Below, in pieces: positions 1,441-35,885 of a stretch of DNA of 64,000 bases. This stretch comes from Ramazzottius varieornatus (taxonomy: Eukaryota; Animalia; Tardigrada). The stretch is from positions 899,481 through 963,480 of the forward strand of contig BDGG01000002.1 in the NCBI GenBank assembly GCA_001949185.1. The letters run 5' to 3'. The notes under the pieces were generated by a model. The model saw only the letters and a list, made by a program, of their open reading frames with translations, did no database searches and was not told the DNA's origin. Each line of letters opens with the position of its first letter. The first letter of the stretch is position 1. A program made the position numbers and the translations under genes.

Positions 1441-3846
1441 CAAGGGATTAACGCCAGTCTGTCCACTCTGATCCTCAAACCAATATGATAGCATGATAGA
1501 GCAGAGTTTGCTCCACAAACTGAGATAAACTAAATCGGCGAAATAAAATCCTGGAAGACGCCACAGGAAGCGGAAGTGACGTCAAATTCAGGGCGGATCA
1601 CCAGTGTGACAGCAAATCAACTGATTTGATTGCCTGATGGTTGATTTAATATTGATTGAACCAGTTGCGCTTGTACTCTACGCTAAGCCAAGCGTAATCA
1701 GTTTTGCTGTGCCTGTTGCTTCATTGCTCTTACATTCATCGTTCCGTTACCGCGTGATTTCCACTGTCGCCCGAAATGAATTCCGTTAATCCGATGAATG
1801 TGATGAAGCTTCTGGAGGAGGACTACAAGCAGCTCTTCCAACTGGATGGACAACCGAGCGAGGCTGATAAGCAGTTAAAAGAACTCGTCAAAGGTATTGT
1901 ACTGTTGCCGTTCACTATGGCTGACATTGATATGAGATATTCCACCTTTCTGTTTCTGTTTCAGAATTTATGGATGTTAAAATCAACCGATCAGGTAGTT
2001 CTTCGTTGGCACTTGAAGAAGACCTGCAATATGAACTGCAAACAGACATGCAGACGTTCGACGAGTTCGAGAAGTTGGTTGCTAACCAGCTGGCTGAACC
2101 CGACGAAAATCCTAGCCAAGAAGATAAAGTCGAGCCTCTCTCCAGTGGAACGGAACCATCGTCCAACGAATTCCATGTCCCGCGAATACCGAACCCAAAA
2201 CAGCCGCCACGTAACGCAGTCACTCTCGACTACAAGAAACGCTCCGTCGCTTTCTGGAGGAATGTCGCTACGAAGAAACGACGTAGCCTTTCGTGTGTCC
2301 AGACCAAGTTCAAGAAAGTCACAAGTATTCGACAACTCCAAGAATGGGAACGACATGTTGCTGAGGGCGGTTCCAGATATGATAAGCTGAAGGCGCTGCG
2401 TTTGGAGACTGGTAAGCAGTTCTTCCTGGCCAAGCAGAAGCCTCATATTGTGAAAGATATGGATATTCGACGTTGGGCTGTTACTGCGAACCGAACCATT
2501 GGCCTGGTAGGTTTCACGGCGTCTCCGGACTCGGTGGGAAAGTTGAAGAGGTAAACACATTGAAGTATTAAAATGAAATATGTATCATTGCTTACGCAGA
2601 TCACTTCAACCGAGAACTTCGCTCACGAGTTACTGCGCCACACTAACGGGGTCGATATTGTAGGTATTACGGCATCGTCCATCGGAAGATCACCAAGTTC
2701 GTGACCGACAAGTACATTCAAGAAGCTCCGCAAGTAAAGAAAACTGGAGAGGAGTGCGTCGCCCTTGTCAGATCGAGGATCTCAGATTACGGCTTGGACT
2801 GTATGTGGAACACGGATCAGCCTGGGTTCGATTACGAGATGAGACCAGTGCGCACACTGCATCTGGCCGGCGCAAACCATGCTCTTGCGATCTGTCAGTC
2901 GGAGAACTCCATGACGCATAGCTACACGGTTATGATGACTATTTCGCCCGGCACGCGCAAGTTTCTCCCACAACTTTGGATCACTCTCCAGAAGGGCAAA
3001 GGCGTTTTCGGTCCAATTGTGGCAAGGACAATGTTTAAAGCTGACAACCTGTATGTCACTGCTTCGGCTTCGGGTAAGATGACAAAGAAGCTCTACTTGG
3101 AATGGGGTGAAAAGATATTGTTTTCTCATGTGGAAGATCGCTGCATTCTGCTGGCCGATTCGTGGAGAACCTATTCTGACCAGGAAGCTGTTTTGGAATT
3201 CAAGCCTGAAGAACTGGAATACGAAATGATCACGATTCCTCCGAAAGTGACTGGTGATATCCAACCACTGGACAGACTCTTCGTCCGAATGTATAAAGAC
3301 TTCTTCCGGAAGATCTCCAGTTTCATCATTTTGCACAGCCTTCCACTTCAAGTTCATCATCGAGACGTAATCCTCAAGATGCATTCTTTGGTTTACCAAC
3401 AGTTTCAGTCTCCCCGGTTTGGAGACCTAGTGAACCAGGCCTGGCATTTGTGCGGCTATACTGACGAGTCCTTTGACTATGTAAATCCTACCGAATTCGC
3501 TTTCCCCAAGAAGTTGACTGGTCATTGTGACCATGAAAACTGCGACGACCGGCTTTTGCTTAAGTGCGGCTGGTGCAAAGCTCCTCTCTGCTTCCATCAC
3601 TTCTACGATCAGTATCACGTCTGTAAAATTTATCTTCCATGAGTTCTGTGAAATTTTAGACTGTGCTAGTATAGTTGGTCATGTCATGTCGATGTAAGAA
3701 TTTGACGTCACTTCCGCTTCCTGTGGCGTCTTCCAGGATTTTATTTCGCCGATTTAGTTTATCTCAGTTTGTGGAGCAAACTCTGCTCTATCATGCTATC
3801 ATATTGGTTTGAGGATCAGAGTGGACAGACTGGCGTTAATCCCTTG
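1441..3846 (+). mobile_element. Tc4/Tc5-like (pogo-related) DNA transposon, full-length copy 1
   Basis: 149-bp TIRs at 1441-1589 and 3698-3846, identical by eye, starting CAAGGG; 3-bp TSD TCA at 1438-1440 and 3847-3849; internal spliced transposase gene. Confidence 0.95.
1776..3642 (+). CDS. Tc5-like transposase, ~560 aa; exons 1776-1893, 1965-2550, 2664-3642
   Basis: Two GT-AG introns join three ORFs in frame (1683 nt). HTH-like region (FTASPD..GKLKR); catalytic motifs WNTD, LLAD, IQPLD with 37 residues between D2 and D3; C-terminal Cys/His domain (CDHENC..CGWC..CFHHF..HVC) like the Tc5 C-terminal domain. Confidence 0.9.
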
Positions 3847-10102: not shown

Positions 10103-11207
10103 ATGACGAACTCGTCCGAGTCCGACTATCTGCACCACGCTGTCCAGCTTCCGTTTATGGTTATGTGGGCGACGTTGACGGGATCACTGCTGGCCGTTGC
10201 TTCGATATGCAACGCCTGGAACCTGGTTTGTCTGGTATTCTTTGTGTATTCAGGACGATGCACTACAGCCCACGTTCTGTCGGGTGTCCTCTTCCTCAAC
10301 GACTTCTTCTCCTCCACCGTCTTCTATCCCGGCATCGTAATCAACATTCTGAGAGGTAACCAAGGATTGTGGCGGGAAAGATGGTTTTGCCAGTTGATCA
10401 GTTTCGGAGGAACTCTGTCAGCCGTGTGCTCCAGCATGTCCAACACGCAGATTGCCGTCTTCCGCGTCTACATGGCCTACATGCGACACTGTCCTGCATA
10501 CAAAATCCGGGCACAAAAGAAGCACGTTGCGGCAATCCTCGTAGCCTTCACTTACTTTCTGAGCGCCTTGGTTCCCAGTATATCCTACCTTCCAGCAGGT
10601 ACTCGAGAGATTGACCCTCCCTATGGCTTCTGCGGTCTGGAGCCCCATAGACAAGATGGAGCCATCAAGCTAGTCAAACTGATAAGCTGGGTCTTCGCTC
10701 CCACTACAGTTACTTCAATGTGTTACTGGATGGTTTACAGAATGCTTCGGGAAACAAAGCGGGGCAATCAGGATCGCATCAGTGCACGACTGCGACGTTT
10801 GTTTATTCGAATTCGCTGGATGGTCCTTTTAAAAATCTTAGCCCATTATCCTGTTGCTCTGTTTTACCTGTTACGGGCGGATGAAAGCCCTAGGCCAACT
10901 ATCAACTTGATCGTCCTCACCCTGCATTTCTGTTCACCATTGTTCAACGCGGTAATCCATAAACAGCAAGAACCTACTAACTTCCACTTGATCGTTTCTT
11001 TCCTTGAAGGTTTTGTACGGTTTCGCGGACCCTCTAATGATGCCCCCATACCGCGTGATCGACGACCACCTGGGATTTATCAAACCTTGGAAAAACTGTG
11101 TCTGCTGCTTCCCCTTCTCCCAATGGCTAACCAACGCCAGCACCGAGCGGTTACCGCTACCTCGGATTTGCCAACCAAGACTACCTGCTGTGGTGCTTGT
11201 CAGCTAG
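10103..11207 (+). CDS. Orphan class-A-like 7TM receptor A, ~348 aa; exons 10103-10951, 11010-11207
   Basis: Seven hydrophobic segments; TM3 Cys (WFCQ) and ECL2 Cys (FCGL); splicing restores TM7 FNAVLYGF; exon 1 is 849 nt with the same intron position as the paralog. Confidence 0.85.
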
Positions 11208-12057
11208 TTTCTCAAAACGCCTTTGATCGATACATATAAAGTATCGTTCAGTCTCAGGCTATGGTCCTGGGATATTTGGTTCGTGTTTAGGCTTTAAGCG
11301 GTAGCTTCCGCTTTCTGGCTTCCTACGTACTTGCCGTCTTCTGACGTACTGCAAGAAGCGAATTTCAAGTAACGGCTTGTGGAAGGGAAGTTAAATTACC
11401 GATGACGTCACCTCATCCGGCTACTGAAACATAAGATAACAACGGAGCCATCAGCGACGTCGAATCGTCGGTACTTGGCGCAACCCTCCGCTTTCCGATG
11501 ATACCAAGCGGAGCCAAGTCAACCAATTTCCGGCTGTGGAACGATCCTGTCCCCTTTTGTGCCAGTCTAATGTTTGGCCTACCTGCGGGCAAGGTTAGTC
11601 GCGCCCTATACAACAGTACTGTAATGCTTCATTAACTTCGCGGAAGGAACGTCACAGTTCGCCTAGAGTGTACCGATATGGTCAGCCATACAGCACACGC
11701 TGACTGTGACGTCACGTCGCGAAGTTTAGGAAGCATTACCGTAAACGCTGAACCAGCGCGTGGATAATTAGGCGGTAATCCCACATCCGACACTTTACAT
11801 TTAATATTGGATAAATGGACCAAGAACGCTCCCAGGCCATGTCAGATCGCCACGGCACATAAAAGTGCGTAGGCAATAATCCCAAGTAATCATCTTCTGG
11901 AAAGAGCCCATTAATGAGATCACCTGCGTCATCGAGATGCGATACCGTATACGTGTGTGGCGAACTTGAAAGATTCTTTCTGGACTCTAAGCTGCCTGCT
12001 CGCTCATACTGTACCTGCCTTTTTGGTGGTTGAATATATTGTTTTTGCATTTCTCAA

Positions 12058-13565
12058 ATGGCGAATACGTCTGAGGCTGATTTTCTCCACCATACGGTCG
12101 ACACGGCTTATATGACCGCATGGGCTTTGATAACCGGCATATTTTTAGCCATGGCCGCAATATGCCATGCTTGGAATCTGCTCTGTCTGGTGTTCTTTGC
12201 GTACTGTGGACACCCCACCACCGGTCACGTTCTTCTGGGGGTACTTTTCTTCAACGACCTCCTGTCGTCCACCATCTTCTACCCGGCCATCACCAGCAAC
12301 ATCGCCCAGGGTAACACTGGCTTATGGCATACCCGCTGGTTTTGTCAGCTAATGAGTTTTGGCGGGACCCTGACTGCCTTGTGCTCCAGCAGCTGCACTT
12401 GCCAGATCGCCATTTTCCGCGTCTTCATGGCTATCCACCGACATTGCCCCCCGTACAAGATTGAGAGTCAGAAAAAGCGCTTGGCACTGATTCTGGTGGC
12501 ATGCTCGTATCTGGTCAGCTTGTGTGTCCCTAGCCTGTCGTATATTCCGCCGGACAATCGGGAGATAGACCCTCCCTACGGCTTTTGCGGACTGGAACCC
12601 TACAAGCAGGAAAGAGCCATTCAGTTGATTAAACTGGTAATTTGGGTCTTTGTTCCAACTGTCATCACCTCGGCCTGCTACTGGCATATCCATGGGATAT
12701 TGAAGAAGATGTATGCGGGAAATCAGTTGCGCAGTATGGCTCGTTTGCGATGCCTGCTGATTCGGATTCGTTGGATGGTGGTCCTCAAGATAGTGGCGCA
12801 CTACCCGATCGCACTATTCTATTTGCTGCGCCACGATGAGAGTCCAAGACCGACCGCCAATCTGATCGTTCTCAGTATACACTTTCTTTCCACTGCGTTC
12901 AATTCGGTAAGTTGAATGTGATGAAGAACTACGGTTGACATGCGGCGTTTACATCCTTCAAAATTGATGGCAAAGACGAGGGAACCCAGACAGTAGTCGA
13001 CCTATTGGAAACAAAAAAGTGTCAATGCATAAGATGGCAGGTCGGCAGACGAAACATACAAGAATGCTTCTCAAGAGGCGCACTTTCCATTTTTCATGGT
13101 TTGAGCGTGCGCCACCTGCAAGAACGATTTGGACAACTTGTTTACCGCCCCCAAACTTAGTTCTATGCTTCAAAGTAAACTGTTTTATGGAATACCGCTT
13201 TAGGTGATACTCAGCGCTAAGCCTAAGAGAAGGTTGATCTGACAAATCGGCTCTCAATTTAGATTTTGTATGGTTTTACGGATCCGCTGATGGAACAACC
13301 CTACCGAAATATGGTCGAGCGTCTGATGGCAACATGCCTCGGGCGTATGTGCGACAGGTGGCTGCGCTTCTCGAGTTTGCTGCTTGCAGCCACATCTGAA
13401 CTGATACCCCTCCAAACCTTCAAGAGCATCCAGCCTACGGATTCCGACCCAAGTGAAAGTGAAATATCAGCCTGCCCGATAAATACACGCGACAACTCTT
13501 GCAACTCCGCTTTTACTTTGACAAAAGCCGAAGACGACGAAAGCCTTTCTAACAAGGGAGACTGA
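12058..13565 (+). CDS. Orphan class-A-like 7TM receptor B, tandem paralog, ~383 aa; exons 12058-12906, 13263-13565
   Basis: Co-linear with receptor A (REIDPPYGFCGLEP, IRIRWMV.LKI.AHYP); GTAAGT donor at 12907; exon 2 begins ILYGFTDPLM. Confidence 0.85.
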
Positions 13566-15453: not shown

Positions 15454-15459
15454 TATAAG
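15454..15459 (+). promoter_or_regulatory. Possible TATA box of Gly-rich gene 1
   Basis: TATAAG about 120 bp upstream of ATG 15572; position only. Confidence 0.25.
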
Positions 15460-15571
15460 AGTCTGGCCGCGTTGCCGAGAAGAGTCGTCGTCGTTGCTTC
15501 CTTCTCACCTTCTCTTGGAACTTTCCTCTCTTCCGACCGGTGGTCTGCAGTTTGCCGTGCAAACCACCATC

Positions 15572-16237
15572 ATGAGGACCTTGTGGATATTATGCACAGC
15601 GATGGGTATCGCTCTCTCTTCAGGTATATGCAGCTGTCACATTTCTTTCAGAAATCCAATTCTTGAGTATGATATTCAAAAAAATTAACCGGAATGTTCT
15701 TCTCCAGTGTATGCTCAGAGCAGCTACGATAGCAGCACCAGCAGCTACAGCTCGGCCACCAGCAGCAGCTACAGCAGCAACTCCAACAGTTACAGCAATA
15801 ACAACGACAATAACAACAATGGATACAGCAACCCGACCGCCAACTCTGGTTACGGAGGATCTTCCGGCGGTGGCGGATACGGAAGTGGTGGTGGAGGGCA
15901 TGGTGTCGGCGGCGGCATCGGCGGCGGCATCGGCGGTGGCATCGGCGATCTTTTTAGCTTCCCCTTCGGTTACTCCAGCGGTTACGGATACGGTTACAGA
16001 AGGTACATCCCCGTCCCCTGGTGGATCTGGTATCCCAGCAGCTTCGGCTTCAACAGAGGCTTCGGATTCGGTGTCAACGGCGGCTTCGGGGGAGGCGGCC
16101 TCGGAGGCGGAGGATTCGGCGGTGGTGGACTTGGTGGTGGCGGATATGGAGGTGGCGGCTATGGAGGAGGTGGCTATGGAGGAGGTGGCTATGGAGGAGG
16201 TGGCTATGGAGGTGGCCCAGGAGGATACGGTGGTTAG
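15572..16237 (+). CDS. Secreted Ser/Asn- and Gly/Tyr-rich protein 1, ~193 aa; exons 15572-15623, 15708-16237
   Basis: Signal peptide MRTLWILCTAMGIALSSVYA-Q across a phase-1 intron; GGGGY repeats; core PFGYSSGYGYGYRRYIPVPWWIWYP shared with the gene at 34235. Confidence 0.85.
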
Positions 16238-17086
16238 TAGCGCCACAATAGACGTAATTATCTGCCCCGCAGGATGCTCAGGTATTTTCCAGTTTGACCA
16301 GACGGGCCTGTGTTTCTTCCAGGTGGCGGATATTAAGCTGGCCGAGTTTCTCTCTCAACATCTATGCAAGGTGTTGCTCGATGGCTGGTCCATTTTTCGA
16401 GTCTACACTTTGGTCTCTATTGTTCCTACTTTTCCGTCTCTTCTTCTGTTCTCTGCTACCTGTTATGCCATACATCGGTACAACTTCCCGACTCTTTCCA
16501 GATCGGCGTGTTTCATCCCAGCATTTTTATGCGTGCGTTCCCTTCCAGCCCAAGTGGTTTTATGAGCAAGAAGTCCAGTAAAACTCGAATTCAAAAAATT
16601 TCCACAGTAAAATGGATTTGTTTTTATCGATGGCGCAATTCCGACAAGGTTACTACAGCATACTACGCAGTTGCACTTTCCGACTACAGCATGCCGATCA
16701 GAGCAGTTCGCTGATCATGGCTCCTCGGATTCGGCTCTCCATCGCGGTCTTTGGGGTTTCGCCCGGAGCTGCAAAACCATACTCCTAAAGCCAACAGGAA
16801 GAAGACAAATACAGTCCTACCTGTGAGATGTGACAATTTGCTTCTTCTGCAACCGAACAGCGTTTCTGCACGAGACTGCTGGCCATGCACTGCGCAGCAT
16901 CATCAGCTGATCGACGTCCGGTTATGGCTTGACTTGATCAAGTAATCAAACGCGTGTCTGATCAGCTGATCGGTCTCATGCGAACAGCATAGCGAGCAGC
17001 CCCGTGGACACACGTACCGTCCGGAACTGGAATCGGGCGTTTGAACTGTCACATCTCACAGGAAGGACTGTAGATCAGTATACTGC

Positions 17087-17587
17087 CTAATGAGACCAAA
17101 TGGTACCTGCGCATTGATATTCGACCACCAATGGACGCCGAGTCTTGCAGGTGGGATCGTTGAATCCCAGGAGGACATCATCGCTGGCTTTGATGAGACA
17201 AGTCGACTTGTTCTTGCACAGACTGCGGATGGTGTTGCGAATGCTGCTGTTCGAGTTGCAGGGAGTGGCTTCTCCAATGCTATCGGAGGACGAGCTGTTG
17301 CTTTTGGGTGATTGATTTCTATACATAGCTTCCACAACGGCCACCACTTTTCCGGGTTGCGTACAGCGGATCGTCTGACTCTGGCCGTCCTTGATGGTTA
17401 CTTTGGTATTGGTCCCGCGGTTACTGCCTTTATCCAAGGGAACCCCAATGACGACGCAAGCCAGTGCAACCTACAGATCAAAATGTTCAGACAGCAGGCC
17501 GTACAGTTACCCCTCCGAAACCTATTTCACAGTCAGACGAACAAAAGTCCGACTTACCACCAAGAAAACAGTCAAAGTCGATGCCAT
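17087..17587 (-). CDS. Secreted SUEL/galactose-binding-lectin-like protein 1, ~137 aa; exons 17587-17558, 17470-17087
   Basis: Signal peptide MASTLTVFLVVALACVVIG; pattern C..G..V..V.EAMY..C..C.NKSTC.I.AS..GF.DPTC..LVVEYQC matches the SUEL fold. Confidence 0.8.
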
Positions 17588-19729
17588 GTTGCTTCAGCGG
17601 ACTGTCCACAAAGACTTCAGATAACGTTATGTTGAAATGAAGCGCGACAACTTGTGTCGGTTCGCGGATTTCTTCTTTCTGAAACAGGAAGTTTTTGTAT
17701 ACTTGACGGAGCTAGGAAGCCGGAGGCGGGTGATCCATCCACATTACCAGCTTACGCAATCGTGTGACCACAACACCGAACCGGTCTTTCTGCTATTTCC
17801 TATCTGGACCGGTTAACTTCACCACGCTCGTTCTCCAAGAAAATCCTGTTGCCTGCCCCCGCATTTAGACCTTTCCGTCTGCGATGCACAACCTGTTGTC
17901 ACTTGTCCTAGCTAGGACGATGACACTTCGCTAGAGTAACGGCGAATTGAGCAGTCCGTCCCTTTCAGCCTATGCATAGTCAATTACCCCTCGCAGCACG
18001 AAGCTGGCATGTTGACGAGCGTAGCCGAGACGCTAATCCATTCAGAGCGGAGACCATGATCCGGAAGAGTCTTGAGCTCCCACGGTGTTACTCCCAACAC
18101 TGCAGACGAAGTGACGAGTGACGAAAATATAAAGCATGCAGTTAATTAAACGCTTATCCGCCAGACGAACGACGACCCACCTTGCAACAAAGGTGTTTAG
18201 CGCGGTGGGCAACGTGGTCCCTCAATCACTAAGACAGCTGCACGATGCCAGAAGGAGAATTGGCTCGTCAAGCGAAAGTTCTAGTGGAGTTCTAACTCTG
18301 AAAGCGCCTTTCTATGTCCGATATGCTGATTTCCTCTTGTGACCAGCTGCATGATATGTTTTTATGCTTGAATAATGATCTCCGCTGCCTTCCGGTCATA
18401 GAGATACCGGTTCGTCGCGAAAACCATTGATGTCTGTGGAATGTCTGAAACATATCCAGCCTGGCGAAGCGTGACGTATTCAAAGGAAGAGTTGGGCAGC
18501 GTCATGTTTGGCCACAAAGGAATGAAGCTTTTTGGGCCGGATTTGGAGTGAAAAGTGGGACCTTTGACTGACGCACGTAAAGATTACGGACCAGGCCCTT
18601 TCGCTACGGCGGCACGGGCAGGTGATTCTTGTTCTTGCTTCAAGTAAAAGCCAACATCGAAGGCTGGACTGCTGTACGTACGTGCCGGATATTGGGCCGA
18701 AGAGCTGAAACTTTCCATATTTATTATAGCAGTCAGATCTCCACTTTACCGGAGCACGCACACCTTCAACAGTTCAAGCTAGTCGAAGGCTTCACCGAGA
18801 GAAAGTCGATAGCAGCTTTGAAGTGTCAGAGATCAGCTGACCAGCTGATGGCCACTGTCCATGACAATTTTCCACTGATGTGCTGCTAAACTTCGTGTTG
18901 CTGGAGAGTAAGACGCATGATCGAGTCCTTTATTGACTTCGTCCACGCGCAATAGGGGCTGATTTTAGCAATGACGGAAACCTTAATTACTGTGAATTTG
19001 GCTAAACTCCCAAATCAGTCAATCTACCACCCAAGTAGCTTCTGGTTCGAGACACAACAGTATCACACGTCGATTGATTCAGCGTTTGTCCTGTCTCGCG
19101 GTCCGAAAAAGCACCATTTTTAGGTTCGATACAATGATCTCCAGCTCACGAGTCATCGCCACGCCATTTTTATGGACTCGCGTCGCAGTTATTGCGCGTT
19201 TTGGCCCACCATGCTCAGATAGAAACGAGGTTTGGCAGCATTACGCTGCAAATTTCTACGGTTGAATTTTACCATGTTACATCATTTGTCCGATTTCTGT
19301 TTCTAACTTCCATTCAAATTGTTAATTTGCCGTCTTTTCCGCCTGGCCCCTAATTTTTACTGGCCCATAACATCTCCAACATCCGTATCCCCATTGCGAT
19401 ATAAAACAATGTCCCAACAATTGAACGCCGACGGGGCGTCAACTGGTTGTCTCAATCCATACAACCAGGGTACACAGCGGGCTCTGGTCACTGAGTTCCG
19501 GTTTTGCCGTGCAAACCGTGCCTGCGACAATAATTCCACATACACATTCAGGCAACTGAGCGAGCGAGTCGCAAAACGAGCTGGATGGTTCAATGTTCAG
19601 TCTCAGGATCTGGTGGGCCACTTTACTTGTCTGCATCCCCGATATCGGCTGACTTCTTACTGAAGGATAGTTCTGTCCGGCTAGCCGGGTTCACAGTATT
19701 CAAGGTGGACTTCCACTTCTCGGTTCTTC

Positions 19730-21275
19730 ACGCAAACTCCTCCCTAAACCTCACCTACTTCGGCAATATGAGCAATCATTGGCCTTCCTACTGGAGTCTC
19801 CGAACGATTTACACTGCCGTGAGCAAGGTCATCTTGTTGGTGCTTAACTCCTTTATCGTCCACCTCTTCTTCCGGCACCTCTCTGTTCGGACGTCGTTCA
19901 AAGTCTAGGTTGAGCACTCATGCGCCGCTGACTAAGCTGCAGAAGCTTTTCGGGTGACGCTTTTTCGTTCCATAGGGTCTGGAAACCAACAGTCTGGAAA
20001 CCAGAGGGTCAAAACTGTCCCAAAGTGGTGGAGTTTTCAAATCTTCGGACGGTCGTTTGACCCTCTCCGCCAAGAAATTCTTGCTTTGTCTCGAGAAAGA
20101 TGTTCAGTTTGTCCCAAATAAGCTGGAAAGTCCTGTACAGTCTACCGCAACCAGGTGTCAAATCAAACGGTCAAACTATCGATCGGGAACTGAGACAAAA
20201 TTGCATTGCGTTGGTGTGAAAAACCGCCACCAGCTCGTGATCTCATCAAGATTTGAACTCATCAAGATTTGAAATCCACAAATTTCGAAAACTAGGTGAT
20301 TGGTTAAACCTGATTCCGCCTTTCAGATCCGGTCAACCCCACAGTACCACAAGGGGCCCGGAGCACCTGGCGCCCCGAGTGTTGAACAATTTAAATTTGA
20401 TTCGTGGTGGTGACACGACACCAGTTCTAGGGAGCCTCAACTTTGCTTCGTGTTCCTCCCAATACCGTCGCGAAACGGACATTTGATAAGCAACCAAAAG
20501 CACTGTAATCGACGACTTACGTTAAGTTTACCTCAACGGACTTGAGCGCAGTGGACAACCTGACTGATGGCTCCTCAATCAACTAGAGCAAAAGCAAAAT
20601 GCTGAAGCGAAAAAGTGGCCGGGACGAAACTAACATGCAGTGCATTTTTAACTTTCGAAAGCGACTTCTTGCTTCCAGCACTGTACTGAAATACTTGAGG
20701 AATGTCACGCATCTCTACGTCGTGATACGCCGAACATACTGTATTCCCTCGATGGTTTCGCGAATCACGTGACGGTCGACGTAAGTATTACCCGGCGGGG
20801 ATGGAAAATGCCTGTGTCTTCAATCAACGTTTACTCGCCAATCAAGTTGCGTGATGGGCGACAATCAGACAATCAGTGATGTCAGTGCGGGTGTAGTTTA
20901 CTGGCGCAATGACGTACTATAATTTGCGAAACCATCGAGGGAATACAGTATGCGGGTATGCTACGCACACAGCACATGAACTTGTTGAGAAATGAGATGA
21001 AGTTCAAGAAGCATCAGGACTCGTTTTGGGGTCGTCTTCGAGGCCGGGGCGGAGGACAGTTTCTGACCATGTCCTTGCTGACTGTCAACGTTGCGGTCTC
21101 GATGTTGCCTATGCACATTTTCTTCCTGCTGCAAATGTTTGGCGCAGATCCACCCGGCATGTTTGCCATTGTTTCCATTCCTTTCTCGCTTTCCTACATC
21201 ATGGATCCGGTCATTTTCCTCTTGACACTAAAAACAATGCGTGATGCTTTCAACCAGTCTTTGAAGGTGTGTTGA
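19730..21275 (+). pseudogene. Fragmented orphan GPCR: N-terminus+TM1 at ~19730-19908, TM6-TM7 at 20958-21275
   Basis: 5' piece has NSS/NLT sequons and TM1 (ILLVLNSFIVHLFFRH..VRTSF) then a stop; 3' piece has TM6/TM7 ending MDPVIFLLT; middle TMs not found; a MITE lies directly upstream of the 3' piece. Confidence 0.55.
20739..20948. mobile_element. Tc1/mariner-type MITE with TA TSD
   Basis: TA|ctgtattccctcgatggtttcgc ... gcgaaaccatcgagggaatacag|TA. Confidence 0.85.
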
Positions 21276-22135
21276 CTGAGCAGCGAAGAACCCGGCAGGG
21301 TTTTTGCGCCATCTTGTTAAGGCACGAGGACAACGGAGTTGTCCATTCATATATCCCCCACAGTTCTCATCCTGCGTCTATCAGATTTTACTAACTCTCA
21401 ATCTATCTGATAGAAAAATACTGCTACCTTCTTCCCACAGTGCATATAAGCGCAGCGGACGCAAGAGAAAAAGTCGAAATGGCCGAGAAACACTCGCTGG
21501 GAAGAATGAATGACAGGCATGTCGAAAAATCTGTTCCTTTTAGACATTCCTGCGTGAATTTTCAGAGCAGACAACTTCGCTATCTTCACCTTGTAGCTAC
21601 AACAGAAGCGCATGGTGTGTCTTTTGGTCTGTGAACAATATACTGTACCGAAATGTTGTGTTGCTCTTAATACGGTATCATGTCCTTTTATCGCTGTCTC
21701 TCAAATCTGACGTGCATGTGCTTATCTTGAATTATTTCCATTCCTTGAATATTCTCAATGAAACTGTTTGCGGATGTACAGTAACAACGGGTGTGTAATA
21801 GATGCAGACGATACTGAAACTTGATGACTGGTTGCCAGTGCTTTGCGGATACTGATCGAGGTGCCGGTTCACGACAGAAAATCCGATGTCTGCGGAGTTT
21901 TGGCATATAAAGAGGTGTACAGTAGTTTTGTCACCTCCAAACCAGAAGTCGTACGGCGAGCTATGACATCATCCAATAAACCGTGACCCACTTCCGCTAC
22001 GTAACACTACAAGGCATTATGGAGAAGATTATTTGAGAAAGGAAGCAGAACTTTTCTTCGGGTTCGCGATACTGTCTTGCCAACGCGACGAGGAGCTGCA
22101 GTACCAGGTGTGATTTGACGGAGCTCGAAAATCGG

Positions 22136-22797
22136 TTATCCGTGGAACCCGTCGTAAAAGATGTTGATGAAAGCCTTGTGTGGAACAGTGGTACCGACCG
22201 ACTTGGCTGTAAGAAAGAAGAAGCATGGTATGGCATTAACAATCAACCATCCATCTACAGTCTAATACTCGTTCACATGAACAGCGAACGGTAAAACAGT
22301 GCATCGAGGCAAAACGTCAACTCACATCGGGAAGCGCAGCTGTAGTCAACGATGAGAGATCTTCCGGCACAACTTGCCCTGTCAGCATTCCCGGATGGGG
22401 TGTCATTGGCATTGAGGTTGCAAGAGCCACTGCCGTCGCACTCAAGGCCCACGGTTGGAGTAATGTCTGTCTCCGGGCAGGTGGCGCTTTTCTGGTTGGC
22501 TCCACTTGCAGTATACCGAGCACGCTGTATTTTTAGCTTGCTTCCCAAAATTTCACAGGACAGCGTTTTGGCTTCACCAGCACGTATCTCCAAAGTGGTG
22601 GAGGGATTTAGCTGAGACACGGTGGCGCGGTCGGCCGCAACGCCGATGGAGCTGGTGGTGAGGATGGTCTCGGTGGTGCTAGTTTTCGGTCTTGCTGTTC
22701 GCTGGCCATCGCTGGAAGAAATGAGTGCGAAAACTAACAGAGTATATAGACCAGAAAACCGACGAGATGGAGTACTAGTGAGCGAATCCGGATGCAT
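22136..22797 (-). CDS. Secreted SUEL-lectin-like protein 2, ~180 aa; exons 22797-22326, 22206-22136
   Basis: Hydrophobic leader and Thr/Ser stalk, then LSC..LKIQRARY..C..C.G.GSC..C..LIVDYSC; GTGAGT donor and polypyrimidine acceptor are in frame. Confidence 0.75.
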
Positions 22798-23267
22798 TTT
22801 TATGCGAATTATTCACACTGAGGTTGTGTGACAAAATTGGGTCATGCGACCAGAAACTTTGCCAATCATACTGAATCCGAACAAAAAACTTCTGTTCTGG
22901 CTTTTGGCAGTTGCTTTTTCCGCATTCCTGGGTACTAGAGTTTGCCACAGGGCAAATAACATGAGTTGTCTGTTTCACTGCAAAAAAGCCGAATTTTCGC
23001 TTACCGTTGCTACAGCTGTGGTTACTGTAAATCAGGCTTCGGTGTGGCAAACAGCAGAAAATTTCGGAGCGAAAATGTTGCGCAACTTCTGTCATACTGC
23101 ATTCCACGAGGCATAGGCTAGAAGCCCGCTGGGTCTACGACAGAAGCTAAAGAATACGAACAGTATAATATCTCGAGAAAGTCTGGATAAAAGCTAGTAT
23201 CGAAGAGTCACTGGTTCTTCGATAGACAATTGTGTTATAGTGTGTTGTGTTTTTGGGTTTGTTCTTC

Positions 23268-24405: not shown

Positions 24406-26522
24406 CGAGGGGATTATGCCTGTCCCCACCTCTTTTTGGTCAAACTGTCCTGGCGGAACGAGAGAGGAGACTCTTCTAGGATCTGAGCCAGTGAGCTAAA
24501 TCCCGCGTCGATCCTGAAACAAACTGCAGGGACTCGGGAGTGACGTCAAAAGTAGGGCGGTATATAAGCAGAGTAATGAACAATCAAGACTTGATTGTTC
24601 GATGGTTGATTCGGTTGTTGATTGAGCCTGTGCTTCCTGCTCATCAAGTTTTCTGTTGTTTTTCAAACTTCTCTCATTTGCTCATTCATTCCTGCGCTTC
24701 TCTGAAATGGAATCCATCAACTTGCTGAATTTTATCAAGCTGCTGGAATGGGACTACAAACTGCACTACCTTATCGACGACTTTCCAAGCGAAGCTGACA
24801 GGCAGTTCAAGGACATAGTTAAAGGTAATCTTGCTGTGCACTAGAGCTCAAAAACAAAAAAGATACTAATTTGATTCGTAATCTTTCCTAGATTTCATCG
24901 ACTCGAAGATCACCCAAAGTGTTACTCCTGTGTACGCCGTTGAAGAAGACCTCCAGTATGATCTGCAGATCCGCGTCGAGTCATTTGAAGATTACGAAGC
25001 ATCTGTTGTCCAGTGCAACCTGCTGAATGGCCGGAGTGAAGCTGACTTCGACGTTACGGAACCTAATAGACTGCTTGAGCCTGTTTCCAGCGGAACTGAA
25101 CCTTCTTCCCATGAGCTATACATCCCACGACTTCCTAACCCAAGCTTCCAGTGGATCAGTTAGTCAACCTGGAGTACAAGAAACGTGCGGTTACATACTG
25201 GAGAAACGCCGTGAAGAAGAAGCGTCTCACGTTGGTCACTGTTCAGAGAAGTTTTGGTAAAGTAACCAGCATACGGCAGCTGTACGACTAGGAGAAGCAG
25301 GTAGTGGAAAGCGGTTCCAGGCTGGACAAGTTGAAGGCTCTATGTTTGGATGTCGGTAAGCGGTTCTTCCTCGCTAAAAGGAAAAAGCAAGTGGTCAAGG
25401 ATTTGGACTTACGTCGATGGGCTCTCACTGCGAACGAAACGGTGAACTTGGCCGGTTTCACTGCTTCCCCAGACTGGATCGGAAAACTCAAACGGTACCA
25501 ACAGTTTTTGGTGCTTCGATTTCCTCCAAAACGAAATTAATATCTTCTAGATATTATGGGATCGTTGACCGGAAAATAAAAAAGTTCGTCACCAAGAAAT
25601 CCATACAAGAAGCGCTTCACGTCAAGGAAAGTGCTGAAGCCTGCGTTGCGCTTGTCAGATCAAGGATCGCAGAGTACGTATCAGACTGTCTGTGGAATGC
25701 GGATCAGTCAGGCTTTGAATATGAGATGAGATCAGAAAGAACTTTGGAAACTGCTGGAGTAAAACACGTGGAAGCGATCACCCAGTCGAGAAATTCCATG
25801 ACACATAGCTACAGTGTGATAATGGCGGTCTCCCCGGGCAGGCGTAAGTTTCTTCCTGTTCTTTCCCTAACGCTAAAGGAAGAGGGAGTGTTTGGTCCAA
25901 TCGTGTCGAGAACGATGTTCAAGGCTGATAACTTGTATGTCACCGCTTCGACATCCGGGAAGATGACCAAGAAGCTCTACTTAGAGTGGTCAGAAAAAGT
26001 TCTTTTCCCTCATATGGAAGAGCGGTGCATTTTCTTGGCCGACTCGTGGAAGACCTTCACCGATCAAGATTCTTTGATTGAACTGAAACCTGAAGAGCCG
26101 GAGTACGAAAAGCTGACCATCCGTCCAAAAGTTACCGGTCAAATTCAACCGCTGGATGTGTTATGCTTTAGGATGTACAAAGGCTGCTTCAAGAAGATAT
26201 CCGATTGCCCGTCTTTGCAAGGCCCGTCTTTGTTTCCATCACTTTTATGACGCTCATTATTTCTGTACTATCTATTTGCCGTAACAAGTTTGTTTACTGA
26301 TGGGTTTCAGGGTTTGTTTGTTAGGTCTAATGTGGACCTACAAGAGATCACGTTTCTACGTTACTGGCATAAATTTCTGACGTCACTTCCGAGTCCCTGT
26401 AGTTTGTTCCAGGATAGACGCGGGATTTAGCTCACTGGCTCAGATCCTAGAAGAGACTCTCCTCTCTCGTTCCGCCAGGACAGTTTGACCAAAAAGAGGT
26501 GGGGACAGGCATAATCCCCTCG
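24406..26522 (+). mobile_element. Tc4/Tc5-like DNA transposon copy 2 (decayed, distinct subfamily)
   Basis: ~143-bp TIRs (24406-24548, 26378-26522) with a few mismatches, starting CGAGGGG; TSD TTA in a CTTAG target. Confidence 0.92.
24707..26284 (+). pseudogene. Tc5-like transposase pseudogene
   Basis: Homologous to 1776-3642 with the same two intron positions; WNADQSG, FLADSW and IQPLD retained; in-frame stop (~25289), frameshifts near 25160-25250 and a large deletion before the CKARLCFHHFYD terminus. Confidence 0.9.
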
Positions 26523-28170: not shown

Positions 28171-30653
28171 ATGGCGAACCCTGAAGCTTGTCGTATTTGT
28201 GAAGCGAAGGCGACCGGGTTGCACTACGGCGTTATCACGTGCGAAGGATGCAAGGTGAGTCTATCTACAATTATTAGACAAAATTATTATCTCAAATTGT
28301 GTTTCTGTTTCCTGAAACATGAAAGTGCTTGAATGACAGAGATTGTGGTCTTATGGGTGGTTCGGGAAAAGAGTACAGTGCGCACTGTCCAGATGGATCA
28401 TTATAAAAGCAAGGACAAACTTGCGTCAGGCTGTCACGGTAGAGTGAGTTAAGCAACAGCGATGTCAGTCCATCATAATAACACATTGTACTACAGGTCT
28501 TCTTCAAACGCTATCTGAATAAACATTCCCGGTACAAATGCTACTTCGGAGGATGCTGCGTTACGAATGTACAGACCCGGCACCGGTGTAAGGCATGCCG
28601 GTTCCAAAAATGTCTGCAAGAAGGGATGAGTCTTGAAGGTACATAATCGGGTCCTTAAGATGGAAGAGGTCTTCATGTCCATATATCTGTTAAAGCTATT
28701 GATAAATCAATAAGTCTGTTACAGCTATCCGCCTAGGGCGCACTCCGAAGAGGATGTCTAAGGATGCCACATCTCCAATGAGACCATCACCACCTGATAC
28801 CACTAACATACTAGCCTCCCAATGCACCTTACATCATTCTCCTACGACAACTAAACCAGAGAGACGAGGTTCGTCCCATGCCCAAGCCAAAGGTATCTCC
28901 CAACATCTCTTGGATCGGCCACTCGAGATATTAATTTTCACAGACTTGTGATATCTCAATGGAGAAAGATTGGTTGCCCAAGGGGTATAAATAAAGCCTG
29001 AAAACAACAGATCGTAACAGACACTATTTTTAGGTTCAAACAGCCTCCAAACTTTTCGCCAGTCCGCGTTTCATGTCCATCCCTCGCTCCAGTCGGAAGC
29101 TCACCAGGTGAATGACAATTTCTTCCCGGTAACAGAATTTCCTGCAGCGAACTCGGGCAGCATTTGCACAAGCGGTAGCGATCTCTCCTACGGTGCCCCG
29201 TGTTCCGAGGTTGCCTTCCTGCCCACTACCCCACCATGTTCCTTACCGCAAAAAATCAAGGCAGATGTGGGACAGCCTATCGTTGTTCACGAGAGCTGGT
29301 CTGGATTCTTGCAAAATTTAGCTGCGCACTACCTGGAAAACCCGGTACCGCCATCTGCTGGGATCGGACAGTTGGATAATGGCCATCACCTTGCGAGTGT
29401 TGTGCCTGCCCGGCCTTCAGCTGTGCACCGTTATTGGGGTCTGCTCAAAGCAAAGAACAGCGTGTTAGAAGATAGCCTGAATGCCGTCCATCAAGTGGGT
29501 GTCGACGTCTTTTTAGAGCATTACATCCGATATGAAAACTTTGTGAAAGAAACGTATGAAATGGGAAATGTTCCGGTAAGCCTGAAAAGTTCATCCAGCC
29601 CGCACTTCGTGGCCAGAAGAAATGTCTCTGATTCTTTTACAGTATCAACCTCAAACCTCATTGGAGCAAATGCTGGGATACGTACAGGACATGGTTTCCT
29701 ACTTCGGAGAGAAGGTAGCTCGCTTTGCATTAGGTCTTGCGGGCTTCGCGGAGATGAACGCAGGAGACCAATCGTACCTCATCAAAGACCGATGGCTAGT
29801 CTCATTTCTGGTACGTCAGTTGGGTTTTCATTTCCATTTCGAATGTAAGTTTTTTGCGTGCTGGATGTATGTATTAATAGATTATGAACTCAAAGTGTTA
29901 TCGGGACAAGGAAATTTACCATCCGATCGGTCCGCACGACTTACACTACTGTCGCTATTGGATGGATGTAGCGGCATCAAATAGGTCCGAAAAGTTCCTG
30001 GAATTCCTCTTTCACGTCACATCAGCGATCAACAGTCTGGAGCTGACGATGACGGAGCGCTTTGTCTTGTTGGCAGTGGGATTGCTAAAGACAGGTGAAA
30101 CCGCGGTCGATCCCACTCTAGGTCGACAGAAAATAATCAATCAATCCACCCACCAACCATTTCCTTTGTCATACTGATGTTTTCTCTAGACGCGTCAGAT
30201 ATACTGGCGAATCGTCCTTATATCGATTTCCTTTCCGCTCATTATTTGGAAACTCTGCTGAGGTCGCTACAAAGCTCCAACGCTCAACGACCTAACGTGG
30301 CTGAAAAACTGCGCCAGGTTGGTTTACAGACCGATTATCTAGCAAGGCGTGCGAAAGCGCCTCGATCAAAATCCGGGAAAGGGTTAATGGTTGATTTTAC
30401 GATCTTTGCTGAACCTTTATGACGGACGAAGTTCGTGTCATTTTTAAAAACTGCAACTGGAAACGAACTTCCGAAAGAACTTTGGACCGAAATTGAATCT
30501 GCTTTGCAGCTTGTATCACAGTTTGCAGTGATCAACGAGGTAAACAGAAAGATTATCATGACAGCGGACTTGAAGCATGCGCCGCTGCGTGGACCGGTGG
30601 ACCCCAAAGACGTCGACCGACTGTTGACCATCCCGCAATCTGACGATAGATAG
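28171..30653 (+). CDS. Nuclear hormone receptor (NR1-like DBD, divergent LBD); approx. exons 28171-28254, 28497-28638, 28725-28892, 29136-29575, 29643-29810, 29881-30094, 30190-30317, 30510-30653
   Basis: C4 zinc fingers CRICEAKATGLHYGVITCEGCK|VFFKR..CYFGGCC..RCKACRFQKC..GMS; AIRLGRTPK extension; LBD signature FALGLAGF..DQSYLIK. Confidence 0.9.
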
Positions 30654-30810
30654 GATATCATCTCCAACCTTGCGATTCCGCTTTTCCTTTTACCACTTTA
30701 TAAGGGCCAGTATTTTTCTGCACGATGCCTTTCTTCAGATCCGCCATTTCTTCTGCTGAGAAAATAATTTATTCGTCAGATAGGTCAGATAGATCAGATT
30801 CGTCAGATAG

Positions 30811-34017: not shown

Positions 34018-34023
34018 TATAAA
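34018..34023 (+). promoter_or_regulatory. Possible TATA box of Gly-rich gene 2
   Basis: TATAAA about 215 bp upstream of ATG 34235; position only. Confidence 0.25.
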
Positions 34024-34234: not shown

Positions 34235-35125
34235 ATGATCCTCAGACTCTCGCCTCTCCTTTGTTGTATTTTCCTTCCCTTCCTCCAAGTTGCCTGTAAG
34301 GGTCCCTCGATTTTCTTACCCTTACGTCGTCTGTCTTCAATCGCCTCAAGTATCTTCCGCTTTAGTTTCAGCGCCATCCTCCAGTTCAGACAGCGGATAC
34401 GCAGCCGCGCCCTCTTCCAGCTACTCTTCATCCGCCACCGGATCGGGGACAGGTACCAGCGCGGCGTATTTAGTGCCAGCTAGAAGTGCATACGACTCCG
34501 GTAGCAGCGGCTACGGGTCCACGGCTGGCGGATCGAGTGGGTATGGTTCGGGAAGTGGAGGGGGGAGCAGCAGTGGTGGGCTGGGCGGATTTGGCCTAGG
34601 CGGAAGTGACTCTTTCTCTCCATTTGGATACTCCAGCGGCTATGGCTACGGCTATCGACGATACATCCCCGTTCCTTGGTGGATCTGGTACCCCACCACC
34701 ATCTCCTACAACAAAGGATACGGCAGTTCAGGTCTGCCTTGCTCTGTCACTTAATTTTCAAGTAACCGATTGACTGAAATTCATTATTGATCGAAAACGT
34801 AAAACGAAACCCGAACGTAGCATGGTGTTAGTGATGATACAGTTCGATGGCCTTTTCAGGTGGTCTGCTGGGCGGTGGGATCGGCGGTCTGGGAGGTTTT
34901 GGCGGTGGTTTCGGCGGTGGCGGTTTCGGTGGCGGAGGGTTCGGTAACGGCGGATTCGGTGGAGGTAACGGTGGATACGGAGGCGGCGGTTACGGTGGTT
35001 ACGGTGGGCAGGGAGGATACGGAGGGCAAGGTGGATACGGAGGAGGTAATTACGGCGGCGGTGGTTATGGCGGTGGAAACTACGGAGCCGGAGGAAGTAT
35101 GGGTGGAGGATATGGGAGATATTGA
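34235..35125 (+). CDS. Secreted Ser- and Gly/Tyr-rich protein 2; exons 34235-34295, ~34366-34731, 34860-35125
   Basis: Signal peptide MILRLSPLLCCIFLPFLQVA; identical 25-aa core motif; GGYGG tail; the exon-2 acceptor is ambiguous (three in-frame AGs at 34350, 34365, 34371). Confidence 0.85.
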
Positions 35126-35885
35126 GACCTTGATATTTCGTTTACTTCTTCGGGCAGTTTTCCTTTGTTCTGTGAAACTTTCTAGCAATGCATACGTTTT
35201 ACTGTCTTCACCTCCGACTCTAATTATTTTGTTATCAATGCAATTTTCCATGTAACGTGGCTGGTCCACTGCTTACTCTAAATCATATTTTACCGATGGA
35301 AAATATGGATGTGTGGGTTAACAGCGCAAAAAAGGGAGACAGATGCTGAGGCAAAGAAAGAACATTAAGTTTTCTATGATAATACGATAAAACGTCGATC
35401 AGTATGTCATTCAGAGGCCCTGCCTTATCTCGCCCAGTTCTTTTCTGGATGGCCGAATTTTTCACCAGCACCCTTATAATATTCCATATGCGCCGTCAAA
35501 ATGATCTGTTCCCTAAAGCTGCGATGTCTTCGTACTTGTGGCCTAGGCAGTGTATCAATAACCATGGCTTGTCATGGAAGATAACGGTCAAGCTAATCAA
35601 GCGTGATGCGGAAGGCTGCACATATATCTCTTCGTCGCCTTTTTGATGGCGAGGAAAATGGTAGACTTTTTATTGACCTGATGTAGTGTCTCTCTCAGGC
35701 CGCGGAGACCCTTTGATTTTACGTGTGACTTTTACAGCGTTTCTCCCTTGAAGAGGCCGAAAAGATGGCTACTTTGGTTGTAAAAACAAACTTGCGGCAG
35801 TAAACCTGTAATCAGTGAACTGTTGTTTGCTGTTACGATGGATTCATCGCTCTACTGAAATTTGATGCATAATAAGGAACTGAGA

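What the first reader, a model, noticed from the sequence alone, without database searches (positions are those of the whole stretch)
15962..16036. Invariant 25-aa motif PFGYSSGYGYGYRRYIPVPWWIWYP defines a secreted Gly/Tyr-rich protein family
Seen: two secreted low-complexity genes 18.6 kb apart (motifs at 15962-16036 and 34620-34694) have divergent flanks but this stretch is identical in protein; 13 of 25 codons differ and all differences are synonymous, which indicates strong purifying selection rather than recent duplication. Layout: signal peptide, Ser-rich region, motif, (GGGY)n tail. I do not recognise the motif as a named domain. Inference: either a self-assembly or Tyr-crosslinking module of a cuticle/eggshell protein, or an RR convertase site releasing a Trp/Pro+Gly-rich peptide reminiscent of indolicidin and nematode GGYG-rich NLP/CNC antimicrobial peptides. 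This is one of the best candidates for an undescribed system here.
Basis: partly seen in the sequence, partly recalled or inferred. Interest (0 to 1): 0.8.

Follow-up and report, generated by a model that had tools for sequence, protein, structure and literature searches.

The report
Tardigrade moult-pulsed protein with invariant core
Two spliced, expressed genes in what is likely a water-bear (tardigrade) genome encode predicted secreted glycine/tyrosine-rich proteins that share an almost unchanging 25-residue core, and because their named relative switches on sharply when new cuticle is made they are likely undescribed building blocks of the tardigrade cuticle.

Summary
Confirmed: the 25-residue core is identical in both genes, 13 of 25 codons differ, all silently. 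Both genes are spliced mRNAs. They head two subfamilies; 10 in-frame members keep 23 of 25 residues, with 0 amino-acid changes in 28 DNA pairs despite near-saturated silent sites. The only named relative is Hypsibius exemplaris BV898_00498; no Pfam, PDB or paper match. The family is partly hidden because public databases translate gene 1 and 14 other sequences in the wrong frame. BV898_00498 peaks in day-3 embryos and about 200-fold at juvenile day 4, when new cuticle forms before an egg-free moult, alongside a heme peroxidase. Best reading (0.7): a lineage-specific, low-complexity cuticle matrix protein, likely tyrosine-cross-linked, whose aromatic core is a binding or assembly site. Eggshell is disfavoured; release of an antimicrobial peptide at the Arg-Arg pair is weakly supported. 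New side finding: 7 of 8 3'UTRs carry CUGG-loop hairpins matching the optimal Smaug recognition element. Location and function of the protein are untested.

The parts
15487..16626 (+). Gene 1 (subfamily A) transcript; coding exons 15572-15623, 15708-16232, 16323-16336; 196 aa; a second donor at 16254 gives a slightly shorter C-terminus
   Evidence: Splice joints in contigs of 4 of 4 runs (first intron) and 3 of 4 (second), template-switch adaptor at 15487, poly(A) at 16626; translation; TATA-like TATAA at 15454
15572..15631 (+). Start of gene 1, predicted signal peptide (exon 1 plus first codons of exon 2)
   Evidence: Hydrophobic N-terminus, Kyte-Doolittle 11-residue mean 2.06; no later transmembrane-like stretch; no dedicated predictor was available
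15962..16036 (+). 25-residue core, copy 1
15944..16072 (+). Extended subfamily-A block (about 43 residues, 88-92% identical to L001-L005)
15711..16565 (+). Wrong-frame (+1) 284-aa ORF that public databases hold as the protein of gene 1 (P0006)
   Evidence: Exact match in NCBI/UniRef/nr; this frame is only 47-71% conserved and has a stop in L002
16380..16394 (+). 3'UTR hairpin with CUGGU loop (Smaug-recognition-element-like), gene 1
   Evidence: 5-bp stem, closing-pair probability 0.82 local, 0.39 whole UTR
34018..34023 (+). TATA-like box of gene 2
   Evidence: contigs begin about 30-60 bases downstream
34235..35125 (+). Gene 2 (subfamily B) coding exons 34235-34295, 34366-34731, 34860-35125; 230 aa; ortholog of H. 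exemplaris BV898_00498
   Evidence: Both introns joined in 4 of 4 runs; shared flanks and tree; VMAT gene next to both
34620..34694 (+). 25-residue core, copy 2
35257..35269 (+). 3'UTR hairpin with CUGGU loop (Smaug-recognition-element-like), gene 2
   Evidence: 4-bp stem, closing-pair probability 0.74 local, 0.62 whole UTR

Best explanation
These are two expressed paralogs of a likely tardigrade-restricted family of predicted secreted Gly/Tyr-rich proteins that are likely built into new cuticle at each moult, with the invariant aromatic core likely acting as a binding or assembly site and the tyrosine-spaced glycine tail likely cross-linked by a peroxidase. Shown: genes, splicing, expression, extreme purifying selection on the protein, two subfamilies, and a sharp pulse of the H. 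exemplaris ortholog's mRNA at embryo day 3 and juvenile days 3-5. Inferred: secretion by epidermis, claw glands or the buccal/pharyngeal epithelium; deposition in cuticle; an intact core that docks on a conserved partner (chitin, another cuticle protein or itself); dityrosine cross-linking by a co-pulsed heme peroxidase fed by Duox; and rapid shut-off (or stabilisation) of the mRNA through CUGG-loop hairpins read by a SAM-domain protein of the Smaug or ZCCHC14 type.
For: Selection on the protein in this frame: 0 non-synonymous changes in 28 of 28 pairs among 8 DNA sequences while all 22 degenerate codon columns vary; each of the 5 other frames has a stop in at least one of 6 subfamily-A sequences. 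Anatomy: hydrophobic N-terminus in 9 of 10 proteins (P0003 lacks one), 29-39% Gly, 10-12% Tyr, near-neutral. Timing: BV898_00498 TPM about 0 at embryo days 1-2, 136-167 at day 3, about 0 around hatching, 14-30 at juvenile day 3, 61-125 at day 4, 0-2 at day 6; 209-fold day-4 pulse against 1 of 14 consecutive unselected rows above 10-fold. New cuticle appears at 3 days after hatching and the first moult at 4-5 days without egg laying. Neighbour BV898_00499 (103-fold, rho 0.91) and heme peroxidase BV898_00063 (63-fold, rho 0.82 over 21 juvenile samples) share the pulse; Duox rises from 0.2 to 2.6 TPM over days 2-5. In R. varieornatus the gene that by order likely equals gene 1 (g5812) has mean 368, tau 0.92, maximum at juvenile day 4, the stage at which moulting-pathway genes are expressed there. 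Precedent: Duox-dependent dityrosine cross-links in nematode cuticle (abstract); waves of secreted low-complexity families in C. elegans pharyngeal cuticle.
Against: No protein-level or location evidence; a search of 3 supplementary files of one tardigrade glycoproteomics paper found nothing. The time course is of the ortholog, not of the window's genes. The table was pre-selected for day-3 embryo induction, so that peak is not independent; 2,430 of 11,988 juvenile-expressed genes peak at 3-4 days, so timing alone is common. Yoshida 2019 places the first H. exemplaris moult near day 7, against the 4-5 days observed by Yamakawa and Hejnol. The one chitin-synthase row (0.7-fold) and 3 of 4 heme-peroxidase rows show no pulse. 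BV898_00499 was never retrieved as a sequence, so its identity with gene 1 rests on position and co-expression; g5812 rests on gene order only, and no row in g5810-g5816 clearly fits gene 2. Complete invariance is unusual for a structural protein and fits a receptor or enzyme ligand as well.
Confidence: 0.7

Rival explanations
1. The protein is a precursor cut at the Arg-Arg pair to release a Trp/Pro-headed, Gly-rich antimicrobial peptide that guards the animal while it moults.
For: One dibasic pair, always in the core, in 9 of 9 chains examined; Gly/aromatic composition like nematode NLP/CNC peptides; furin-like protease 2 rises modestly on juvenile days 3-5; moult timing does not exclude a defence role.
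Against: Conservation is as strict in the 12 residues before the pair as in the 11 after; H. exemplaris has Arg-Lys, a poor convertase site, and no R-x-x-R occurs in 10 of 10 mature chains (convertase preferences recalled); the released piece would be 54-111 residues with net +1 or +2, whereas NLP/CNC are described as basic; YGGYG occurs once and YGGWG never in 10 proteins; the nlp-29 cluster is positively selected, the opposite of this core.
Confidence: 0.1
2. The core is a signalling or regulatory ligand (for a receptor, protease or cross-linking enzyme) displayed on a disordered carrier and released in step with the ecdysteroid pulse, rather than a bulk structural part.
For: Near-total invariance across two paralogs with saturated silent sites; expression follows the ecdysteroid peak at 2 days by 1-2 days; GPCR, nuclear-receptor-like and VMAT genes lie nearby.
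Against: Peak levels of 100-400 TPM and a Gly/Tyr repeat tail fit a matrix protein; the neighbouring VMAT and GPCR orthologs show no juvenile pulse in H. exemplaris (0.8- and 0.3-fold); no flanking cleavage or amidation pattern typical of neuropeptides (pattern recalled).
Confidence: 0.12
3. A maternal eggshell (chorion) protein.
For: Gly/Tyr-rich composition; expressed in adults at 16-31 TPM, which lay eggs while moulting.
Against: Peaks fall in day-3 embryos and before the first, egg-free moult; no chorion or vitelline Pfam family matches at E up to 10.
Confidence: 0.04

Closest known systems
Arthropod low-complexity, glycine-rich cuticular proteins with short Tyr motifs (GYR/YLP-like motifs, Drosophila GCR1, Tweedle flanks; Cornman 2010, PMC2932725)
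   Same: Signal peptide, glycine repeats, short conserved Tyr-centred motifs, link to cuticle; the core holds a Gly-Tyr-Arg followed by Tyr-Ile-Pro, a loose likeness to the GYR and YLP names.
   Different: No match to PF02756, PF02757, PF00379, PF03103 or any Pfam family at E up to 10; one long invariant block rather than short degenerate or repeated motifs; Trp-rich.
C. elegans pharyngeal-cuticle low-complexity families IDPA/B/C, APPG, NSPB, FIPR (Kamal 2022, PMC9629831)
   Same: Lineage-restricted, secreted, low-complexity, blocks of high positional identity, transcript waves at the moult.
   Different: Those families are reported only in nematodes; no sequence hit to them; location here untested.
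Nematode NLP-27 to -34 type and caenacin antimicrobial peptides (PMC6780910, PMC2453101)
   Same: Secreted, rich in Gly and aromatic residues.
   Different: Much longer, near-neutral, lacks the YGGYG/YGGWG signature, under purifying not positive selection.
Smaug recognition element (SRE; also read by ZCCHC14/TENT4) (PMC4053848, PMC9282228)
   Same: CNGG loop on a variable stem; 11 of 11 hairpins have CUGG, 10 of 11 a G before the loop, 10 of 11 a 5-base loop, the three features reported as best.
   Different: Found here in moult-pulsed, presumably epidermal zygotic mRNAs; the reader protein in tardigrades was not identified.

Membership tests
CPR / CPAP / Tweedle / CPF arthropod cuticular proteins | Family domain (R&R chitin-binding, ChtBD2, Tweedle, CPF) | tested here: not met
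   0 Pfam families for the long exons and for 10 of 10 core blocks at E up to 10
GYR/YLP-motif cuticular proteins | Match to PF02756 or PF02757 | tested here: not met
   Cornman's broader matrices are in figures that could not be seen
Glycine-rich cuticular proteins (functional class) | Signal peptide plus glycine-rich repeats | tested here: met
   Hydrophobic N-terminus in 9 of 10, 3-8 Gly-Gly-Tyr units in 9 of 10; hydropathy only, no SignalP
Glycine-rich cuticular proteins (functional class) | mRNA peak when cuticle is synthesised | tested here: met
   For the H. exemplaris ortholog only
Glycine-rich cuticular proteins (functional class) | Protein present in cuticle or exuviae | not testable with these tools
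   No proteomic hit in the one data set searched
Chorion / vitelline membrane proteins | Maternal (ovarian) expression, absent before reproduction | tested here: not met
   Peaks in embryos and before the egg-free first moult
NLP/CNC antimicrobial peptides | Basic peptide with YGGYG or YGGWG motifs | tested here: not met
   Net +1/+2 C-terminal piece; YGGYG 1, YGGWG 0 in 10 proteins
NLP/CNC antimicrobial peptides | Induction by infection or wounding; killing activity | not testable with these tools
   No infection data set was found or searched
Convertase-processed precursor | Conserved Lys/Arg-Arg or R-x-x-R site bounding a conserved peptide | tested here: inconclusive
   Arg-Arg in 9 of 10, Arg-Lys in H. 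exemplaris; no R-x-x-R; conservation spans the site
Smaug recognition element | CNGG(N0-3) loop on a stem | tested here: met
   7 of 8 UTRs, 11 hairpins, 0 antisense; folding weak (0.16 or less) for the 4 hairpins of L002 and L003
Smaug recognition element | Binding by a Smaug/SAMD4 or ZCCHC14 protein | not testable with these tools
   No genome held; no 'smaug' row in the embryo-day-3 table

The most novel reading that the evidence does not exclude
A tardigrade-specific cuticle-building module: an ultraconserved Tyr/Trp/Pro core that nucleates assembly of, or anchors, a peroxidase-cross-linked glycine elastomer, made in a one-to-two-day burst whose mRNA is timed by Smaug-type hairpins, which would tie SAM-domain mRNA control to the moulting clock, and which has stayed unseen because gene callers read it in the wrong frame.
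Probability: 0.2. Interest if true: 0.72.

Novelty: new variant of a known kind. Interest (0 to 1): 0.5.

Why it matters
The searches run here found no paper naming structural proteins of this type for tardigrade cuticle, and the family is largely invisible to protein searches: gene 1 and 14 database sequences are held in the wrong frame, so proteomics against the public annotation cannot detect them. A 25-43 residue block that tolerates almost no change inside an otherwise fast-changing disordered chain is a ready handle for testing how a low-complexity cuticle protein assembles and what it binds. The conserved CUGG hairpins give a direct, cheap test of post-transcriptional timing of a moult gene.

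Tried and rejected
Recent duplication or gene conversion: rejected (pS 0.69). Constraint from another reading frame: rejected (stops in each of the 5 other frames). No whole genome was held, so copy number beyond the window is unknown; a six-frame scan found no third member in the window. Pfam 0, PDB sequences 0 at E up to 10, Rfam 0 over 15400-35500, ESM Atlas no usable hit for the core and only scores up to 0.77 for the long exon. AlphaFold2 of the core block: mean pLDDT 53.5, pTM 0.17, no fold; Foldseek 0 matches, meaningless at that confidence. Three-copy complex prediction gave no verdict. P0005 (E 7.6e-4) is an unrelated repeat protein. 5 of 11 metagenome loci (L007-L011) and 7 of 7 prokaryote-genome loci (L012-L018) match only a short Trp-rich seed and were dropped as chance (L012-L018 judged from the match table only). 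3 of 4 runs of other organisms laid nothing on the core, which proves no absence. The run finder listed no holder on record as RNA; splicing, adaptor and poly(A) settle transcription. No ecdysone-response or FTZ-F1-type site in about 1 kb upstream of either gene by simple patterns (patterns recalled). Annotation of g5811-g5817 was sought in 24 of 27 supplementary files of PMC5531438 and only a TPM row for g5813 was found. Earlier findings of the scan: none near or by sequence.

Full report
Observation. Both stretches translate to the same 25 residues; 13 of 25 codons and 14 of 75 bases differ, none changing a residue. Synonymous sites make up 27% of the stretch, so 14 of 14 silent changes has P about 1e-8, and pS is 0.69. 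This is selection on protein, not a recent copy.

Genes. Contigs of 4 public runs (RNA by the tool's guess) join gene 1's first intron in 4 of 4 runs and its second in 3 of 4, and both introns of gene 2 in 4 of 4; a template-switch adaptor marks a 5' end at 15487 and a poly(A) tail a 3' end at 16626. The spliced products are 196 and 230 residues, 38-39% Gly, 14-16% Ser, 10-11% Tyr, with a hydrophobic N-terminus and no later membrane-like stretch (hydropathy only).

Relatives. Protein searches gave two: Hypsibius exemplaris BV898_00498 (P0004) and an unnamed ENA protein (P0003) (covering 84-2000 residues; over 1.84 billion representatives gave these plus one unrelated hit). A DNA scan of metagenome contigs gave 11 loci, 6 of them full members (L001-L006) and 5 chance seeds. 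One of 4 runs of other organisms held the core with subfamily-A flank. Among the 10 in-frame members 23 of 25 positions are invariant; the exceptions are Arg14 to Lys and Val18 to Ile, one sequence each. In 28 of 28 pairs among the 8 with DNA there is no non-synonymous change, while all 22 degenerate codon columns vary. A tree of the 47-residue block splits A (gene 1, L001-L005) from B (gene 2, L006, P0003, P0004) with support 95/96; no rows were left out, and the root is not known. The organisms behind L001-L006 and P0003 are unnamed, so 'tardigrade-restricted' rests on one named hit and on the lack of hits in other animals. The window is not H. exemplaris (gene 2 differs from P0004) and is likely Ramazzottius varieornatus: a VMAT gene flanks gene 2 here and BV898_00498 there, and the published R. 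varieornatus genes g5808-g5817 between the matching GPCR and VMAT orthologs fit the window's gene order. That GPCR was not verified in the window.

Why it was missed. The public protein for gene 1 is the +1 frame ORF 15711-16565 (1 of 8 ORFs looked up was in the collection). That frame is 47-71% conserved and broken in L002; each of the 5 alternative frames has a stop in at least one of 6 sequences. Searching with the wrong frame returned 14 further database proteins; 13 of 14 are compatible with the exact 25-mer and the 14th with the 17 of its last 18 residues that were scored, against 11-16 mismatches in 20 shuffles.

Timing. In supplementary file 1 of PMC6925440, BV898_00498 is near 0 TPM at embryo days 1-2, 136-167 at day 3, near 0 from day 5 to juvenile day 2, 14-30 at day 3, 61-125 at day 4, 5-15 at day 5, 0-2 at day 6, 16-31 in active adults. 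Yamakawa and Hejnol saw new cuticle at 3 days after hatching in 18 of 20 animals and the first moult at 4-5 days without egg laying, and treat this data set as days 1-7. Of 21 rows compared (2 targets, 2 neighbours, 3 picked by name, 14 consecutive unselected), the day-4 pulse is 209-fold for BV898_00498, 103-fold for its neighbour BV898_00499, 63-fold for heme peroxidase BV898_00063, and above 10-fold in 1 of the 14 unselected rows. Duox rises from 0.2 to 2.6 TPM over days 2-5. Against: the file was pre-selected for embryo day-3 induction; 2,430 of 11,988 genes peak at 3-4 days; the chitin-synthase row and 3 of 4 heme-peroxidase rows are flat; Yoshida 2019 puts the first moult near day 7; BV898_00499 was never seen as a sequence. 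In R. varieornatus g5812, gene 1 by order only, peaks at juvenile day 4 (tau 0.92), and no row clearly fits gene 2. Both H. exemplaris genes are lower in tuns, so they are not desiccation-induced.

Mechanism. The simplest fit is a secreted matrix protein laid into new cuticle (body wall, claws or buccal apparatus; not resolved). Shown: genes, selection, timing of the ortholog. Inferred: secretion, location, dityrosine cross-linking of tail tyrosines spaced mostly 3-10 residues apart (precedent), and a docking or self-assembly role for the core. Structure prediction gave no fold. The cleavage idea keeps a single dibasic pair in 9 of 9 chains examined (for L001-L006 from 45 residues before the core), but conservation spans the pair, H. 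exemplaris has Lys at the cut position, no R-x-x-R exists in 10 of 10 (convertase rules recalled), and the released piece would be near-neutral.

A second conserved part. A shared 3'UTR word proved to be a hairpin: 7 of 8 UTRs hold a CNGG loop on a stem of 4 or more pairs, 11 hairpins in all, 0 on the antisense strands; per-UTR chance 0.06-0.26; leaving out L003 and L004 as close kin of L002 and L001, 5 of 6, P 2e-4; the window's background predicts 3.2. All 11 loops start CUGG, 10 follow a G, 10 are five bases long, and stems differ while staying paired; these are the three features that best predicted Smaug binding in PMC4053848, and the same loop is bound by ZCCHC14/TENT4. Cautions: found after the fact; 2 other loop patterns of 64 also reach 7 of 8; the 4 hairpins in L002 and L003 fold poorly (0.16 or less); L006 has none; the end of gene 2's UTR was set by me at 35420; no tardigrade reader protein was identified.

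Comparison and novelty. No Pfam, PDB, Rfam or Atlas match. It works like arthropod glycine-rich cuticular proteins with short Tyr motifs and the C. elegans pharyngeal low-complexity families but belongs to neither by sequence. Not found in print in searches for the locus tags, accessions and motif, for tardigrade glycine-rich cuticle proteins or tardigrade Smaug; subscription journals and bioRxiv supplements (such as the moult clusters of Yamakawa and Hejnol) were out of reach and may list these genes. Papers seen: PMC6925440 passages and supplement rows; PMC9791283 supplement rows; bioRxiv 2024.06.14.599130 parts 1-3 of 6; PMC2932725 parts 1-2 of 5; PMC5531438 and PMC12167791 supplement searches only; PMC9629831, PMC4053848, PMC9282228, PMC6780910, PMC2453101, PMC6652013, PMC7056985 passages; PMC2196470 abstract.

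Verdict. A real, undescribed, likely tardigrade-specific family of moult-pulsed secreted proteins with an exceptionally constrained core and conserved SRE-like hairpins; a new variant of a known kind. Interest 0.5.

Noticed in passing
window 16322-17680 (-) and 21650-22900 (-): Two spliced genes for small predicted secreted proteins with Cys-rich, SUEL-lectin-like domains (the second hits PF02140 at E 0.0012, below cut-off; the first was not scanned). The first converges on gene 1 and their 3' ends overlap by about 300 bases. By gene order it may be g5813, which rises about 2.5-fold in tuns.
   Followed up: partly
window 28560-30700 (+): Spliced, low-expressed nuclear-receptor-like gene between the two paralogs (weak ligand-binding-domain hit, E 0.061; joints).
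   Followed up: partly
window 37269-37850 (+) and flanking exons: VMAT gene directly downstream of gene 2. Its likely R. varieornatus entry g5817 peaks at juvenile day 4 with tau 0.90, unlike the flat H. exemplaris ortholog; it may be a model fused with gene 2 or a real moult pulse of amine transport.
   Followed up: no
H. exemplaris BV898_00510 (PMC6925440 file 1): Another hypothetical protein near the locus with the same two pulses (about 3,500 TPM at embryo day 3, 54-fold at juvenile day 4); a further cuticle candidate.
   Followed up: no
window 1970-3642 and 25417-26250: Two Tc5/DDE transposase copies, split or degraded; reads from related copies lay on the second.
   Followed up: no
window 10103-11239, 12058-12915, 20958-21275, 40480-43311: Rhodopsin-type GPCR genes: two similar intron-poor paralogs upstream of gene 1, a fragment between the lectins (not scanned) and a neuropeptide-receptor-like gene.
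   Followed up: no
P0006-P0020: Gly-rich eukaryotic mRNAs are systematically translated in the +1 Ala/Val/Glu/Asp-rich frame by database gene callers; searching with wrong-frame profiles recovers hidden family members.
   Followed up: yes
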